A stretch of DNA of 64,000 nucleotides from Kordiimonadaceae bacterium. GTDB lineage: Bacteria; Pseudomonadota; Alphaproteobacteria; Sphingomonadales; Kordiimonadaceae. The translations under genes and the position numbers were made by a program. The DNA is taken from NCBI GenBank assembly GCA_017640725.1, contig JAEPQB010000003.1:544704-608703 (forward strand), read 5' to 3'. Positions 9,398 through 14,415 of this stretch are shown here, piece after piece (position 1 is the stretch's first letter; every line of letters begins with the position of its first letter). The notes below the pieces were generated by a model, which worked only from the letters and a program-made list of their open reading frames with translations, made no database searches and was not told the DNA's origin.

Positions 9398-9419
9398 CGG
9401 CCTTAGAACCATCTAAACG

Positions 9420-9450
9420 AAAAAAGCCGCCCGGTCTGGGCGGCTTTTTT
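9420..9450. terminator. Bidirectional intrinsic terminator between convergent gltA and fabZ
   Basis: AAAAAAGCCGCCC-GGTCT-GGGCGGCTTTTTT. Confidence 0.9.
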
Positions 9451-9482
9451 ATTGGTTATAATTGTCGGATGAGCCGTCTAAG

Positions 9483-9920
9483 TTACTCAGCCCCGAGCAT
9501 GGCGGTTAGTTTGGCTTCGGTAACAAGCTCGTCGTTGACATAGGCAGCAGCGTCGAACTTCCATACGGAGCTTCCACCGCGTGTCTTGTTTACCTTCATG
9601 TGTAGAACATCGCCGGGCACAACTGGACGACGGAATTTGGCACCGTCAATACCCATAAAGTACATAACCTTGCCTTTGGCGTCGTCCCCCAGGAATTGAA
9701 CAGCCAGAACGCCAGCGGTCTGTGCCATCGCCTCCAAGATCAAGACGCCCGGCATAACAGGTTTTTGTGGAAAGTGGCCCGGAAAAAATGGCTCGTTAAT
9801 TGTGACATTCTTGATGCCGGTTGCACTTTCACCGGGAACAATGTCCACCAGTTTATCCACCAACAGGAATGGATAGCGGTGTGGAATGGATTCCAGGATT
9901 TCCGCAATAGAGAGTTCCAT
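9483..9920 (-). CDS. fabZ: 3-hydroxyacyl-ACP dehydratase FabZ
   Basis: PHRYPFLLVD and FFPGHFPQKPVMPGVLILEAMAQ. Start ATG 9920 has GGAGG 5 nt upstream. Confidence 0.96.
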   Translation of the reverse strand: MELSIAEILESIPHRYPFLLVDKLVDIVPGESATGIKNVTINEPFFPGHFPQKPVMPGVLILEAMAQTAGVLAVQFLGDDAKGKVMYFMGIDGAKFRRPVVPGDVLHMKVNKTRGGSSVWKFDAAAYVNDELVTEAKLTAMLGAE

Positions 9921-9932
9921 GATGACCTCCGG

Positions 9933-9956
9933 CAATAAGCGCAAAAGCGCTTATTG
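9933..9956. repeat. Perfect 10-bp inverted repeat between skp and fabZ
   Basis: CAATAAGCGC-AAAA-GCGCTTATTG, overlapping the skp stop codon. Confidence 0.8.
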
Positions 9957-10622
9957 ACCCTCAGGGCTTACGGGCACTTCATCAGTGGCTTCGCCAGTGT
10001 CAGCAGCCTGCTGAAGCAGCGTAAGGGTTACTGTTGGCAACGAATCATCCAGACGCTCAATAAACTCTGTCGTCACATCAAGGCCAGAAGCAGTTTCAAG
10101 CGCAAGGCTCTTACGCATAATGATCTCGGCACCACGTTCCTTCAGGATTTCCCGCAACAGTGGGCTGCGCGCGCGTTCCACTTGTGTTTGGGCCTCGCGG
10201 CGTAGATTGTCGAAATACAATTCGAGCTGACGCAGCTGGTTGGTTTCATTCTGCAACTGCTGGCGCATTTGCTGACCTTCAGTTTGGAAAGTCGCTTCTT
10301 TGGTTTGACGCTCCGTTTCATAGGCATCATTACCAATGATGGATTTTCTTTTTTCAAGATCATCCAATTCCGCGACCATACGCTGCTGGAATTGAACAGC
10401 AGTTTGATCCCAGAAACCGTCTGGCGACGTGCGTTGACGAAGGGCGATGATGGCATCGCGAATTTTAGCTGTTTGAAGATCAAAGTCTTTAAAAGCTGCT
10501 GCTTCGCGCTGAACGCGCTCTTGGTCGATGATCAGAATATCAGCTGCTGCTGATACTGTAATGCTTGTGGCAAGCGCTAGACCTGTCACTGCCTGGATTA
10601 GTTTTGTTGCGATATTCCGCAT
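9951..10622 (-). CDS. skp: Divergent, elongated OmpH/Skp-family periplasmic chaperone
   Basis: Signal peptide, IID-x-x-x-V N-terminal strand, long coiled coil, C-terminal LDVTTEFIERLD, position directly after bamA. Confidence 0.75.
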   Translation of the reverse strand: MRNIATKLIQAVTGLALATSITVSAAADILIIDQERVQREAAAFKDFDLQTAKIRDAIIALRQRTSPDGFWDQTAVQFQQRMVAELDDLEKRKSIIGNDAYETERQTKEATFQTEGQQMRQQLQNETNQLRQLELYFDNLRREAQTQVERARSPLLREILKERGAEIIMRKSLALETASGLDVTTEFIERLDDSLPTVTLTLLQQAADTGEATDEVPVSPEGQ

Positions 10623-10640
10623 GTTTGTACCCCATGTACT

Positions 10641-13235
10641 CTAAAAAGTTGTTCCCACATTAAACTGCAGCGTTTGAGTTCTGTCCCCCAGCTGCTGTCT
10701 TAGTGCCCTTGTCAGGTCGATGCGGAATGGTCCGAATGGCGACTGCCATGAAAATCCAATTCCTGCCACAACCCGAGGAGAAGCGCTATCACCCGCAATA
10801 CAGTTAGTATTGAACGGGAATACTGGCAATTCTTCTCCAGCATCTTGTGCAGCTCTTGCCGCGGCGTCGAAGTCCAAAAACTCCCGACGTGAAAATTCGC
10901 AATTGGGAGTATCACTAATTTGCCCGCGGAACAAGGAGCCAGCGTCAACAAATACAGAAGCATTGATGCCAGACTCGAGTGCCGCTTCACCCAGCGGGAA
11001 GAAAAGCTCAGCCCGGCCAATATAGAAGGCCGTACCGCCAAGCGAGTTTGTTCTGTTATTGGTGCCGTTAAAGTCGCGCGGCCCGATACCGGCCACGTCG
11101 AAGCCGCGAATGCGGGGACCACCGATATAAAACTTGTCCGCAAGAAGCACTGACTGGCCCAGTCCTTCGATAAATCCGCCTTCTGCACTAGCCCGGAAGG
11201 TCCACCCGGCCCATGGCGTCCAGTAATTATCGGTACGAACCTGTGAGCGAAGATAGCGAACATCGCCACCCAAACCGGCAAAATCCTGGCTGAACGAGAA
11301 GGACTTACCGCGTGTGGGTCTGATTAGACTGTTGCGGCTGTCAGTACCCACGGTGTATCCGAAAATTGACTGAAAGCGTGTCCCGATCGATTCCTGGAAT
11401 GCTCGGCCCAGGCCGAAAGCCAGCTCTCTGGCTTGAAACTCTCCGTCACCGTTAGTGTCAAAGTCGTCATTCGTAATCTCGCCGTCACCGTTCGAGTCAA
11501 ACTCGTCCAGCGTCGCCTGATCATTTGACGTGTCACCATCAGCCAAAAGGGACTGAATACTGGCAACGGCCGCATTGAAGTTGGGTTCCAAAATCCTGTT
11601 TGGTACCTCAACATTGTCTCTACGCAGCGTATAGCGAGTGCTGAGGAACCAATATTCGTTCAAAGACATACCAGCCCTGAGCGAGAAGCCCAGAGAGTCC
11701 TGGTCAAAGGCAGCACCAAAGTTTGAGCTGTCGATCCGGCGGGCAAAAATATCAGCACCCGCTGCGACCCGCCGACCATTGAAATATGGTTCCGTAAAGC
11801 CCAGGTCGATTTCTTGACGCGTACCAGACAAACGGAGGCCCAACCTCAGGTCTTGTGCCCTACCACGCCAATTTCGCTGTCTAATGGAGAAGTCGAAAAT
11901 AAAGTTCTCAAGACTGGAGAAACCTGCGCCCAAGTTTAGCTCACCAGTAGCTTGTTCCTCGACCGCTACGTCAAGGATCATCCGGTCAGGCTGGGACCCC
12001 TGCAGCTGTTCAATTTCAACCTCGCGGAAGAAATCAAGACGCTGAAGGCGGTTATCCGACCGATTAACAAGCGCAGAGTTAAAAGCATCGCCTTCTTGGA
12101 GGCGGAACTCGCGGCGAATAACACGGTCCAGCGTAACCACATTGCCGCGGATGTTGATGCGTTCAACATAGACCCTTGGCGCATCCAGAATACGGAACTT
12201 GATGTTCATTATTCTGGCTTCGCGATCACGATTAATCTCTGGGCGAACGTCTACAAACGCGTAACCCAACAAACCGGCTGCGTTAGAAAGTTGCTCGATG
12301 GTCTGTTCGATGGATTCCGCGTTGTAGTTTTGCCCTTCACGCATCAAAAGAAATGCACGGAACAGCAACTCATTTACATCGCGGATTTCGCTTTCAATTT
12401 CGATTTCACCGAACTTGTAGATCTCGCCTTCTTCGACGGTGAAGGTAATAAAGAAGTCCTCACGGTCGGGCGTCAGCTCGGATACGGCTGAGACAACGCG
12501 GAAATCCGCATAGCCTTCGTTCAAATAGTGCTGTCGCAGGACTTGCTGGTCATAGGCCAAACGATCTGGGTCAAACGTGTCGTTAGACGTGAAGAACTTC
12601 CACCAGCGGGATTCTTTGGTGGCAAGAACATCGCGAAGGTCACCATCGCTATATATTTTGTTGCCGATGAAATTGATTTTACTGACTTTGGTCTTTGGTC
12701 CCTCTTGGATTTCAAAAACCAAGTCAACGCGGTTCTGGTCTTGCTGAACCACTTTAGGCTCAATAATCGCAGCGAACCGCCCGGAACGACGGTAAAGCTC
12801 CAGCATGCGCTGAACATCTGCGCGCACACGAGCACGGGTGAAAACTTGCCGTGGGCGAAGGCGAACCTCTTCGGCTAATTCTTCGTTATCGAGCTTCTTA
12901 TTGCCTTCAAAAATAATGCGGTTGATGATTGGGTTCTCGACCACACGAACGATAAGAACGCCCCTGCTCTCTGTTAGTTCGACGTCGGAGAACAAACCTG
13001 TGGCAAACAGGTTTTTAAGGCTCTGGTCAAGCGCGCCAGGATCAAAGGGGTCACCAGGGCGCACAGTCAAGTAGGAAGCGATCGTCTCAGGCTCTACGCG
13101 CTCGTTGCCGGAAACAGAAATCTGTCGAATGACTGGAAGCTGCTCAACGGCATCTGCCTGCTGGGCTGATACGGTCGGAACAACTGAAAAAATACTGATG
13201 ACTAGCCCCAGCGAAATCGCCAAGGTTTTTGTCAT
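10641..13235 (-). CDS. bamA: Outer membrane protein assembly factor BamA
   Basis: POTRA repeats (GNERVE, LFATGLFSDV), IRGF L6 motif, FVDAG, C-terminal QFNVGTTF. Start probably ATG 13235 (or GTG 13244) rather than 13331. Confidence 0.97.
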   Translation of the reverse strand: MTKTLAISLGLVISIFSVVPTVSAQQADAVEQLPVIRQISVSGNERVEPETIASYLTVRPGDPFDPGALDQSLKNLFATGLFSDVELTESRGVLIVRVVENPIINRIIFEGNKKLDNEELAEEVRLRPRQVFTRARVRADVQRMLELYRRSGRFAAIIEPKVVQQDQNRVDLVFEIQEGPKTKVSKINFIGNKIYSDGDLRDVLATKESRWWKFFTSNDTFDPDRLAYDQQVLRQHYLNEGYADFRVVSAVSELTPDREDFFITFTVEEGEIYKFGEIEIESEIRDVNELLFRAFLLMREGQNYNAESIEQTIEQLSNAAGLLGYAFVDVRPEINRDREARIMNIKFRILDAPRVYVERINIRGNVVTLDRVIRREFRLQEGDAFNSALVNRSDNRLQRLDFFREVEIEQLQGSQPDRMILDVAVEEQATGELNLGAGFSSLENFIFDFSIRQRNWRGRAQDLRLGLRLSGTRQEIDLGFTEPYFNGRRVAAGADIFARRIDSSNFGAAFDQDSLGFSLRAGMSLNEYWFLSTRYTLRRDNVEVPNRILEPNFNAAVASIQSLLADGDTSNDQATLDEFDSNGDGEITNDDFDTNGDGEFQARELAFGLGRAFQESIGTRFQSIFGYTVGTDSRNSLIRPTRGKSFSFSQDFAGLGGDVRYLRSQVRTDNYWTPWAGWTFRASAEGGFIEGLGQSVLLADKFYIGGPRIRGFDVAGIGPRDFNGTNNRTNSLGGTAFYIGRAELFFPLGEAALESGINASVFVDAGSLFRGQISDTPNCEFSRREFLDFDAAARAAQDAGEELPVFPFNTNCIAGDSASPRVVAGIGFSWQSPFGPFRIDLTRALRQQLGDRTQTLQFNVGTTF
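11424..11507 (-). repeat. Tandem 39-bp (13-aa) repeat in bamA encoding two EF-hand-like loops
   Basis: DEFDSNGDGEITN / DDFDTNGDGEFQA(RE). The DNA unit CCGTCACCGTT recurs at 11443 and 11482. Confidence 0.85.
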
Positions 13236-13305
13236 ACGCTTCACTAAAAAACTCAAGTTAAAGCCCAATCTAAATAGTCTTGTGCATAATGGCGGTGAAA
13301 TTGAC

Positions 13306-14415
13306 CTAGAGCGCCATGGATTGCAAGTCATTCAAGGTCACAAACACCATAAAAATTAGCATTAAGGCCATTCCTGCAACGAAACTGGCTTCCTGTGCCT
13401 TTTTACTAAGGGGTGAGCCCTTCAAAGCCTCTAATCCATAGAACATGAGATGCCCTCCATCGAGAACCGGTATGGGGAGGAGATTAACGATTCCGAGGTT
13501 AAGCGAGAGAATAGCGAGAAAGAATATAAAGCTGGCCAAACTGATGCTGGCGGCTTCGCCTACCATGTTGGCAATGCGAACAGGCCCGCCCAGTTCTTTG
13601 ACTGATCGGATGCCCAGAACAATCTGGCCAAGTGTGGTAAACATCATGTCACCCATGGCGATTGTTTGGCGACCACCTTCTGCAAGGGAGCCGAAAAGTC
13701 CTAGTTCATGATAGGTTGCCTGGTATCCGCCAATCCCTAGCCTGCCGAGGGGATATTGATTGCCAAATCGATCCTGCATGTAACGAATGTCGAGGGTTGG
13801 TGTCAGGGTCAGTGTTTCGCCGTCACGATCGACAACAATTGGTATGGTTGCAGCTGGATACAGCCTCACAATTGCGCCAATGTCGCTAAAACGACTGACG
13901 GCTTCGCCATTGACAAAAAGAATGGTGTCATCTTGCTGTAGACCAGCTTTTTCCGCGGCAGACTCCTCAAGTACAGAAGCGACTTTGGGTTCAGCGATTG
14001 CGATACCGTTTATAAAAACAAAGCCAGCAAAAACCAAAGCTGCAGCGATCAAATTTATGGCCGGGCCTGCGAAGGCGATAAGAGCCCTTTGCCATACCGG
14101 CTTGTAATGAAAGCAGACGTCTCTTTCTTCAGGACTTAGGCCTTCAGGGATATCCCCTGGATTGCTTGCTGCCGAAGCGTCGCCGAAGAACTTCACGTAT
14201 CCACCAATTGGCAAAACGCTGAACTTCCAGCGAGTTCCATTTTTGTCTGTTCGGCCAAACAGCTCTTTGCCCATACCGATGGAAAAAGTGTCGATCTTCA
14301 CACCGAAGATGCGCGCCACGATATAGTGGCCCCATTCGTGGATGAACACCAAAATTGAAAAGCCGCCAACAAATGCGGCTATGGTGAAAAGGAGTCCTGG
14401 GCCTTCAGTTTCCAT
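13306..14415 (-). CDS. rseP: Site-2 zinc metalloprotease RseP
   Basis: HEWGH zinc motif, PDZ-like domain, NLLPIPVLDGGH. Confidence 0.95.
   Translation of the reverse strand: METEGPGLLFTIAAFVGGFSILVFIHEWGHYIVARIFGVKIDTFSIGMGKELFGRTDKNGTRWKFSVLPIGGYVKFFGDASAASNPGDIPEGLSPEERDVCFHYKPVWQRALIAFAGPAINLIAAALVFAGFVFINGIAIAEPKVASVLEESAAEKAGLQQDDTILFVNGEAVSRFSDIGAIVRLYPAATIPIVVDRDGETLTLTPTLDIRYMQDRFGNQYPLGRLGIGGYQATYHELGLFGSLAEGGRQTIAMGDMMFTTLGQIVLGIRSVKELGGPVRIANMVGEAASISLASFIFFLAILSLNLGIVNLLPIPVLDGGHLMFYGLEALKGSPLSKKAQEASFVAGMALMLIFMVFVTLNDLQSMAL

What the first reader, a model, noticed from the sequence alone, without database searches (positions are those of the whole stretch)
11380..11610. BamA with a tandem EF-hand-like Ca2+-binding insertion in a predicted extracellular loop
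Seen: a ~70-aa acidic loop between strand YTLRRDNVEV and strand FQSIFGYTVGTD (followed by the conserved RPTRG turn) contains two 12-residue loops, D-S-N-G-D-G-E-I-T-N-D-D and D-T-N-G-D-G-E-F-Q-A-R-E. They arose from a 39-bp tandem duplication. Established: both fit the EF-hand/DxDxDG consensus (D1, N3, D5, G6, hydrophobic 8, D/E12), and by alignment to E. coli this is extracellular loop L4. I do not know of EF-hand loops in BamA, but I cannot confirm novelty. Inference: a calcium-sensing or calcium-stabilised BAM that may replace the cation bridging normally provided by LPS. With the lpx loss, this is the best candidate here for an undescribed envelope system.
Basis: partly seen in the sequence, partly recalled or inferred. 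Interest (0 to 1): 0.75.

Follow-up and report, generated by a model that had tools for sequence, protein, structure and literature searches.

The report
BamA surface loop with calcium-type sites

Summary
bamA (window 10641-13235, minus strand) has a 74-residue acidic insertion between barrel strands 7 and 8, which is extracellular loop L4. The insertion contains two back-to-back 12-residue EF-hand-type loops, DSNGDGEITNDD and DTNGDGEFQARE. AlphaFold2 models it confidently (pLDDT 81-90) as helix, helix, loop, loop, helix. In 80 Kordiimonadaceae homologues the metal-ligand positions of loop 1 are invariant. Loop 2 has degenerated in about 40%.

The link to lipopolysaccharide loss is not supported. 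None of 61 genomes in the surrounding GTDB order has LpxC, yet seven of its ten families have an ordinary 18-26-residue L4. Only Kordiimonadaceae carry the two-loop form. One other family, Sphingomonadaceae by its L4 type, carries a single Cys-bracketed loop. A BamA tree suggests these are separate gains. Of 100 other alphaproteobacterial families, 14 lack both LpxC and LpxB and none of those has the motif. The one family that has it is LpxC-positive.

The 39-bp duplication is at best ancient. The most likely function is a structural Ca2+ (or Mg2+) site that folds a lineage-specific BamA cap. I found no paper describing it. I rate it a new variant of a known kind, of moderate interest.

The parts
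10641..13235 (-). bamA coding sequence from the probable start M33 (MTKTLAIS...). The open frame runs up to 13331 and overlaps the end of rseP.
   Evidence: TIGR03303 at 709 bits, five POTRA stretches and Omp85. Homologues are 860-867 aa. Foldseek matches BamA structures at E=3e-66.
11604..11654 (-). Barrel strand 7 (YWFLSTRYTLRRDNVEV)
   Evidence: AF2 strand 529-543 in M33 numbering. The sequence is conserved in all homologues.
11382..11603 (-). L4 insertion, residues 577-650, a 74-aa acidic helical sub-domain
   Evidence: It is missing from solved BamAs. The same span is 21 aa in 70 of 100 outgroup families. pLDDT is 81-90.
11544..11603 (-). Long first helix of the insertion (PNRILEPNFNAAVASIQSLL)
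   Evidence: AF2 helix 546-565 in the full model and helix 2-21 in the insert-only model.
11499..11531 (-). Entering (E-type) helix TSNDQATLDEF before loop 1
   Evidence: AF2 helix 569-579. It aligns with the E-helices of centrin and calbindin.
11463..11498 (-). EF-hand-type loop 1, DSNGDGEITNDD (residues 612-623)
   Evidence: In 80 family members: D1 80/80, N/D3 80/80, D/N/S5 79/80, G6 74/80, I/V8 80/80, D12 80/80. Pfam EF-hand_5 matches this loop.
11424..11459 (-). EF-hand-type loop 2, DTNGDGEFQARE (residues 625-636), starting one residue after loop 1 ends
   Evidence: It is intact here. Across the family it is less conserved: D1 64/80, D5 46/80, G6 61/80, E12 66/80. It aligns with an EF loop of CaBP1.
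11382..11432 (-). Exiting (F-type) helix ARELAFGLGRAFQESIG, leading back into the barrel
   Evidence: AF2 helices 602-609 and 611-616 and helix 58-72 of the insert-only model.
11334..11378 (-). Barrel strand 8 (RFQSIFGYTVGTDSR), followed by the periplasmic RPTRG turn at 11307-11321
   Evidence: AF2 strand 618-632. R, P and G of the turn are invariant and T and the second R are present in at least 90% of sequences.
11100..11111 (-). IRGF motif of loop L6, the BamA hallmark
   Evidence: Seen directly in the sequence. It lies between AF2 strands 11 and 12.

Best explanation
This is an ordinary, essential BamA: five POTRA domains, a 16-strand barrel and an L6 IRGF motif. Its extracellular loop L4 has been enlarged in the family Kordiimonadaceae into a small helical cap sub-domain. 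The core of that sub-domain is one strictly conserved EF-hand-type metal site (loop 1). In this species there is also a second intact site (loop 2) directly behind it.

Most likely mechanism: the 39-residue core around the loops has a net charge of -13 and no lysine. Ca2+ binding to D1/N3/D5/backbone-7/D12 of loop 1 and to D1/N3/D5/E12 of loop 2 would neutralise that charge and lock the segment between the entering and exiting helices. The enlarged L4 could then fold onto the barrel rim as part of the surface lid. Loop 1 has Asp rather than Glu at position 12, so it might hold Mg2+ instead.

In seawater the sites would be permanently occupied. The role would therefore be structural, giving stability and shape to the BAM lid, and not signalling.

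Shown here: the position of the insertion, its motif fit, its conservation, its confident helical model and its phyletic distribution. Inferred: metal binding and its structural role.
For: - Topology: the insertion lies between strands 7 and 8 of a 16-strand model, with the POTRA domains periplasmic, so it is extracellular L4. Foldseek confirms the BamA fold.
- Motif: Pfam EF-hand_5, EF-hand_1 and EF-hand_6 hit the excised segment at E=3e-5 to 8e-4. A distant family member with two loops hits four EF-hand models with two stretches each. All PDB sequence hits are Ca2+-binding EF-hand proteins, with helix plus loop aligned.
- Selection: the ligand positions of loop 1 are invariant in 80 homologues that are only 25-60% identical to it across the insertion itself.
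- Structure: the predicted pattern is helix, 12-residue loop, one-turn helix, 12-residue loop, helix, which is what EF loops require.
- Not a composition artefact: only 7 ORFs in the genome have such loops.
- L4 matters for BamA function in E. coli, where an antibody binding L4 residues E554/H555 blocks BamA (PMC5889671).
Against: - No metal was modelled or measured.
- Pfam scores stay just under the gathering cut-offs: 23.6 against 25.9 for the excised segment, and 16 on the whole protein.
- The insertion alone matches no solved fold. The best Foldseek hit has E=4, so it is not a canonical four-helix EF-hand pair.
- Loop 2 has degenerated in about 40% of the family, including species of the same genus, so a second site is dispensable.
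- Two family members (L224, L227) have lost or rewritten loop 1.
- Seven sister families do well with a 21-residue L4, so the insertion is not needed for BamA function as such.
Confidence: 0.6

Rival explanations
1. The EF-hand loops compensate for the loss of LPS by supplying the divalent-cation bridging that lipid A phosphates normally give around BamA.
For: The organism lacks LpxC and LpxB, and lpxD/lpxA/lpxB are missing next to bamA. Both families that carry an L4 DxDGDG loop belong to an order in which 0 of 61 genomes have LpxC.
Against: Seven of the ten LpxC-less families of that order have a plain 18-26-residue L4. Fourteen further alphaproteobacterial families without LpxC and LpxB have no such motif, and the one outgroup family that has it (G117) has both LpxC and LpxB. 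About half of the Sphingomonadaceae have lost the loop. An earlier scan note, which I did not check, reports Ca-type loops in BamA L6 of an acidobacterial group.
Confidence: 0.06
2. A regulatory calcium switch. Occupancy of the loops changes with external Ca2+ and tunes the opening of the BamA lid or gate, and hence OMP insertion.
For: EF-hand loops are classic switches. In E. coli, L4 is allosterically coupled to BamA activity (PMC5889671; see also the abstract of PMC6287456).
Against: Named relatives are Kordiimonas species, which I know as marine isolates, and Ca2+ and Mg2+ in seawater are millimolar and nearly constant. No partner or signalling context is visible. Loop 2 is often degenerate.
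Confidence: 0.08
3. A calcium-dependent docking site. The L4 cap binds another surface component through bound Ca2+, as dockerins and C-type lectins do. Candidates are anionic glycosphingolipid head groups, exopolysaccharide, an S-layer or a surface protein.
For: There is a weak Dockerin_1 similarity (E=0.0028). Back-to-back 13-residue DxNGDG units occur in unrelated large repeat proteins, which look like surface proteins, found with this query (P0134 and P0135). The site is fully exposed on the cell surface.
Against: No partner gene is linked; the neighbours are rseP, skp and fabZ. The Dockerin score is below the cut-off. There is no Foldseek support.
Confidence: 0.12
4. No metal is bound. 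The acidic insertion is a lineage-specific loop decoration, for example for shielding or escape from phage or bacteriocin receptors, and its EF-like pattern is kept for packing reasons only.
For: BamA surface loops vary widely between lineages. Part of family f9 has a 53-55-residue acidic L4 insert without any EF pattern, and G139 has a 111-residue insert. The Pfam hits are sub-threshold.
Against: Invariance falls exactly on the metal-ligand positions 1, 3, 5, 6, 8 and 12 while the positions in between vary freely. That is the signature of a metal site and not of a variable shield.
Confidence: 0.14

Closest known systems
Canonical BamA (E. coli, N. gonorrhoeae; TIGR03303, PDB 5D0O, 4K3B, 9PXJ)
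   Same: Five POTRA domains, a 16-strand Omp85 barrel, the L6 (V/I)RGF motif and the rseP-bamA-skp gene order. Foldseek E=3e-66.
   Different: L4 is about 55 residues longer and contains two EF-hand-type loops. The same span is 21 residues in 70 of 100 other alphaproteobacterial families.
EF-hand calcium-binding loops (Pfam PF13202, PF00036; PROSITE PS00018), e.g. calbindin D9k, centrin, CaBP1
   Same: A 12-residue loop with D1, N3, D5, G6, a hydrophobic residue at 8 and D/E at 12. A helix enters loop 1 and a helix leaves loop 2.
   Different: The two loops are separated by one residue instead of the helix, linker and helix of a canonical pair (my background knowledge), so only a one-turn helix lies between them. 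Loop 1 always has Asp, not Glu, at position 12. Scores are below the Pfam cut-offs. There is no fold match to EF-hand pair domains. The site is extracellular, inside a beta-barrel loop.
DxDxDG-type extracellular calcium loops: dockerin type I, thrombospondin type-3 repeats, Excalibur (recalled from Rigden and Galperin 2004; a lead, not a test)
   Same: Extracellular DxDxDG-like loops, a tandem arrangement with a 13-residue period, and a Cys-bracketed single-loop version in Sphingomonadaceae BamA.
   Different: Dockerin_1 reaches only 18.2 bits against a cut-off of 22.9. No TSP_3 or Excalibur hit appeared at E up to 1-5.
Sphingomonadaceae BamA L4 (for example Sphingomonas, Erythrobacter, Qipengyuania)
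   Same: The same loop of the same protein in the same LpxC-less order, with a D-x-[DN]-G-D-G motif.
   Different: One loop only, a 32-44-residue span enclosed by a conserved Cys...Cys pair, and no flanking helices. It is absent from about half of the species. The BamA tree places the two families apart, which suggests independent origin.
BtuB, a TonB-dependent transporter whose extracellular loops are ordered by two bound Ca2+ ions (from memory: Chimento et al. 2003)
   Same: A precedent for structural Ca2+ sites built from aspartates in the surface loops of an outer-membrane barrel.
   Different: A different protein family with an aspartate cage instead of EF-hand loops. In BtuB, Ca2+ serves substrate binding.

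Membership tests
BamA (TIGR03303, Omp85 superfamily) | Score above the curated equivalog cut-off | tested here: met
   709 bits against a cut-off of 297.15. The match is split in two at the L4 insertion.
BamA (TIGR03303, Omp85 superfamily) | Five N-terminal POTRA domains plus a C-terminal 16-strand barrel | tested here: met
   Pfam POTRA with five stretches and Omp85 over residues 487-896. AF2 gives 16 strands. Foldseek matches BamA structures.
BamA (TIGR03303, Omp85 superfamily) | Conserved (V/I)RGF motif in loop L6 | tested here: met
   IRGF at residues 741-744, window 11100-11111. G invariant, R and F nearly invariant in the family alignment.
EF-hand (Pfam PF13202, PF00036; PROSITE PS00018) | 12-residue loop consensus at positions 1, 3, 5, 6, 8 and 12 | tested here: met
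   By my reading loop 1 fits PS00018 completely and loop 2 fails it only at position 8 (F). In one search the pattern matched at least once in 78 of 80 family members.
EF-hand (Pfam PF13202, PF00036; PROSITE PS00018) | Score above the Pfam gathering threshold | tested here: not met
   EF-hand_5 scores 23.6 bits on the excised segment and 16 bits on the whole protein, against a cut-off of 25.9.
EF-hand (Pfam PF13202, PF00036; PROSITE PS00018) | Helix-loop-helix around each loop, with the hands paired in a four-helix domain | tested here: not met
   AF2 gives helix, loop, one-turn helix, loop, helix. Foldseek of the insertion alone finds no EF-hand domain; the best hit has E=4.
EF-hand (Pfam PF13202, PF00036; PROSITE PS00018) | Binding of Ca2+ | not testable with these tools
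   No ion-aware structure prediction or experiment was available.
Dockerin type I (PF00404) | Score above the cut-off and two loop-helix segments about 30 residues apart | tested here: not met
   18.2 bits against a cut-off of 22.9. The loops are 13 residues apart.
Thrombospondin type-3 repeat (PF02412) | A Pfam match with disulfide-linked DxDxDGxxDxxD repeats | tested here: not met
   No TSP_3 hit at E up to 1-5 for the Kordiimonas insert or for Sphingomonas-type L4 segments.

The most novel reading that the evidence does not exclude
BamA loop L4 may be a hot-spot where divalent-cation sites are repeatedly recruited. There appear to be independent gains in Kordiimonadaceae (two EF-type loops) and Sphingomonadaceae (one Cys-bracketed loop), both with glycosphingolipid-type, LPS-free outer membranes, and in one LPS-positive lineage. 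In Kordiimonadaceae the metal-loaded cap would be required for lid closure or for BamA's interaction with the anionic outer leaflet. OMP assembly would then depend directly on external Ca2+ or Mg2+, which would be a metal-dependent BAM machine.
Probability: 0.12. Interest if true: 0.65.

Novelty: new variant of a known kind. Interest (0 to 1): 0.4.

Why it matters
BamA is essential, surface-exposed and a current antibiotic and vaccine target, and its lid loops L4, L6 and L7 are coupled to activity. A conserved metal site built into L4 would be a natural handle for asking how lid rigidity affects OMP insertion. It can be tested in organisms whose outer leaflet is not LPS.

The finding also corrects an attractive but wrong inference. 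The insertion is a family-level trait and not a signature of LPS loss. The whole GTDB order around Kordiimonas lacks LpxC, and at least 14 of 100 other alphaproteobacterial families sampled show neither LpxC nor LpxB. That second point deserves its own follow-up.

Tried and rejected
- **Tandem Repeats Finder on 11300-11700** found no repeat. A recent 39-bp duplication is rejected, and the units are 25 of 39 identical.
It was useless as an unbiased control. I replaced it with the genome search over one genome from each of 100 other alphaproteobacterial families, plus retrieval of the loci.
- **Longest-ORF picking** chose antisense frames for three GC-rich loci. This was corrected.
- **Exhaustive representative search** with strand 7, L4 and strand 8 gave only 18 hits. 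Two are Kordiimonad BamA clusters and the rest are unrelated EF or dockerin-like repeat proteins. No further BamA lineage with this insert was found.
- **Foldseek of the insertion alone** found nothing significant.
- **Model coordinates** are not readable in the Python box, so I could not measure ligand geometry or contacts between L4 and L6/L7.
- **A composition artefact** is rejected.
- **A periplasmic location** is rejected by strand parity.
- **Literature searches** for BamA or Omp85 with EF-hand, calcium-binding or DxDxDG found no relevant paper.
Full report
**What is there**

The minus-strand ORF at window 10641-13331 is BamA.
- It has five Pfam POTRA stretches and an Omp85 domain, and scores 709 bits against TIGR03303 (cut-off 297).
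- Homologues are 860-867 aa long, so the true start is probably M33 (MTKTLAIS, window 13235).
- Its neighbours are rseP upstream and skp and fabZ downstream, followed by gltA on the other strand.
- The usual lpxD, lpxA and lpxB genes are absent from this cluster.

Solved BamA sequences align to residues 67-577 and 651-896. That leaves about 55 extra residues in the query.

**The observation**

The insertion has a net charge of -12 and no lysine. It contains DSNGDGEITNDD (residues 612-623) and, one residue later, DTNGDGEFQARE (residues 625-636).
- By my reading, loop 1 satisfies PROSITE PS00018 completely. Loop 2 fails it only because it has F at position 8.
- The excised segment hits Pfam EF-hand_5 (E=3e-5, 23.6 bits against a cut-off of 25.9), EF-hand_1 and EF-hand_6.
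- A phmmer search of the PDB returns only genuine Ca2+-binding EF-hand proteins such as centrin, CaBP1, calbindin D9k and polcalcins. The entering helix and the loop align in these hits, with weak E-values as expected for a short motif.
- In the whole 4.04-Mb genome only 7 of 16,979 six-frame ORFs contain any EF-like loop, and none of the other six looks like an outer-membrane barrel. Chance and composition are therefore excluded.

The claim of a 39-bp tandem duplication is not supported as a recent event.
- The two 39-nt units share 25 of 39 bases, and Tandem Repeats Finder finds nothing.
- Both loops are present across the family.
- In two relatives the units share only 16-18 of 39 bases.
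- Six of seven identical residues use the same codon (P about 0.04). This is weak evidence and could reflect local gene conversion.

**Where it sits**

AlphaFold2 was run on a 110-sequence alignment and gave mean pLDDT 86.6. The model has five POTRA domains and 16 strands. The insertion lies between strand 7 (529-543 in M33 numbering) and strand 8 (618-632). The N-terminal POTRA domains are periplasmic, so every odd-to-even strand connection is extracellular. This connection is L4.

The model matches BamA structures at E=3e-66. In E. coli, L4 holds E554/H555, the epitope of the inhibitory antibody MAB1 (PMC5889671).

The insertion is modelled with pLDDT 81-90 as the following sequence of elements:
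- a 20-residue helix;
- an entering helix (TSNDQATLDEF);
- loop 1;
- a one-turn helix;
- loop 2;
- an exiting helix that runs back into strand 8.

The insertion modelled alone gives the same pattern, with pLDDT 81. Foldseek finds no significant structural neighbour for it. The best hit is an engineered Ca-binding Z domain at E=4. It is therefore not a canonical four-helix EF-hand pair.

**Conservation**

A region-directed search found 510 homologues. The named ones are Kordiimonas and Pseudokordiimonas.

| Position | Loop 1 (80 sequences) | Loop 2 (80 sequences) |
|---|---|---|
| 1 | D 80/80 | D 64/80 |
| 3 | N/D 80/80 | N/D 74/80 |
| 5 | D/N/S 79/80 | D 46/80 |
| 6 | G 74/80 | G 61/80 |
| 8 | I/V 80/80 | F/L/V 46/80 (P 15, T 10) |
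| 12 | D 80/80 | E 66/80 |

In loop 1 the intervening positions vary freely, and 78 of 80 sequences match PS00018. Loop 2 is weaker and has degenerated even in species of the same genus. This pattern is what a functional metal site at loop 1 and an optional second site would produce.

**Distribution and the LPS question**

The own genome is 100% complete. It lacks LpxC and LpxB but keeps an LptD homologue. None of 61 genomes of the surrounding GTDB order has LpxC.

I retrieved BamA from 57 genomes covering the order's ten families.

| Family | L4 type |
|---|---|
| f1 (own, Kordiimonadaceae) | Long insert, 74-89-residue span |
| f7 (same L4 type as the named Sphingomonadaceae loci) | 32-38-residue span with one DxDGDG loop inside a Cys...Cys bracket; missing in 2 of 8 here and in about half of 78 named Sphingomonadales loci |
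| f2, f3, f4, f5, f6, f8, f10 | Plain 18-26-residue loop |
| Part of f9 | 53-55-residue acidic insert without an EF pattern |

A FastTree of BamA with L4 masked puts f1 next to f4, and f7 next to f5 and f9. This is a single-gene tree and I did not inspect supports. Two independent gains are more parsimonious than one gain with many losses.

Outside the order I sampled one genome from each of 100 other alphaproteobacterial families.
- The span is 21 residues in 70 families and at most 28 in 95.
- Only one family (G117) has a DTDGDG loop in L4, and it has both LpxC and LpxB.
- Fifteen families lack an LpxC hit, and 14 of those also lack LpxB. None of them has the motif.

That criterion is not met. 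However, the positive prediction, that the motif tracks lpx loss, fails clearly.

An exhaustive search of 1.84 billion representatives with strand 7, L4 and strand 8 found no further BamA lineage with this insert. An earlier scan note reports Ca-type loop arrays in L6 of an acidobacterial BamA. I did not check that note.

**How it most likely works**

I commit to a structural metal site, with confidence about 0.6. Ca2+ would neutralise and lock the very acidic core, so that the enlarged L4 folds as a cap on the barrel rim. Loop 1 has Asp at position 12, so it may hold Mg2+ instead. In seawater the sites would be constantly filled. That argues against a sensor.

Alternatives, with my estimated odds:
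- a Ca2+-dependent docking site for a surface ligand (0.12);
- no metal binding at all (0.14);
- a regulatory switch (0.08);

Metal binding itself was not testable here.

**Novelty**

Full-text searches for BamA or Omp85 with EF-hand, calcium-binding or DxDxDG found nothing relevant. I file this as a new variant of a known kind: BamA with a lineage-specific, metal-site-bearing L4 cap. It is of moderate interest and readily testable.

Noticed in passing
window 9398-10640 and whole genome G000: lpxD, lpxA and lpxB are missing between skp and fabZ. The genome has no LpxC or LpxB hit but keeps an LptD homologue (G000:C8:399479-400591, outside the window). None of 61 genomes of the GTDB order has LpxC, so the loss is order-wide and not special to this organism.
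   Followed up: partly
genomes G066, G072, G077, G081, G082, G088, G093, G125, G133, G135, G139, G140, G158, G160: Fourteen of 100 other alphaproteobacterial families sampled have neither an LpxC nor an LpxB hit. Several have genomes of 3.5-5.7 Mb. Two of them (G081, G093) are the nearest outgroups of the order in the BamA tree, so the LPS-free clade may be wider than the order. I did not verify this with other lpx genes.
   Followed up: partly
window 10800-10901 (-): BamA loop L7 carries a 34-residue helical insertion bracketed by two cysteines (CEFSRREFLDFDAAARAAQDAGEELPVFPFNTNC). Both Cys are present in at least 90% of family members, which suggests a disulfide-stapled second lid element.
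   Followed up: no
L155 (G117:C8:1937-4219): An LpxC- and LpxB-positive alphaproteobacterium from another family has a Cys-bracketed DTDGDGVDD loop in BamA L4. This would be a third, apparently independent, occurrence of a DxDGDG loop at this position.
   Followed up: partly
L213, L226, L228 (family f9 of the order): These genomes have a different 53-55-residue acidic L4 insertion (for example ...PEMPIDDDDFISVTRP...) without an EF-hand pattern. L4 appears to be a general insertion hot-spot in this order.
   Followed up: no
P0134, P0135 (hits of the representative search): Unrelated large proteins contain arrays of back-to-back 13-residue DxNGDGxIxxxE/D units, up to about 25 copies in P0134. 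The tightly spaced tandem arrangement seen in L4 is therefore a recurring bacterial architecture.
   Followed up: no
window 13236-13331 (-): The bamA open frame extends 32 codons upstream of the likely start M33 and overlaps the 3' end of rseP (13306-14415). Automatic annotation could over-extend the N-terminus.
   Followed up: no
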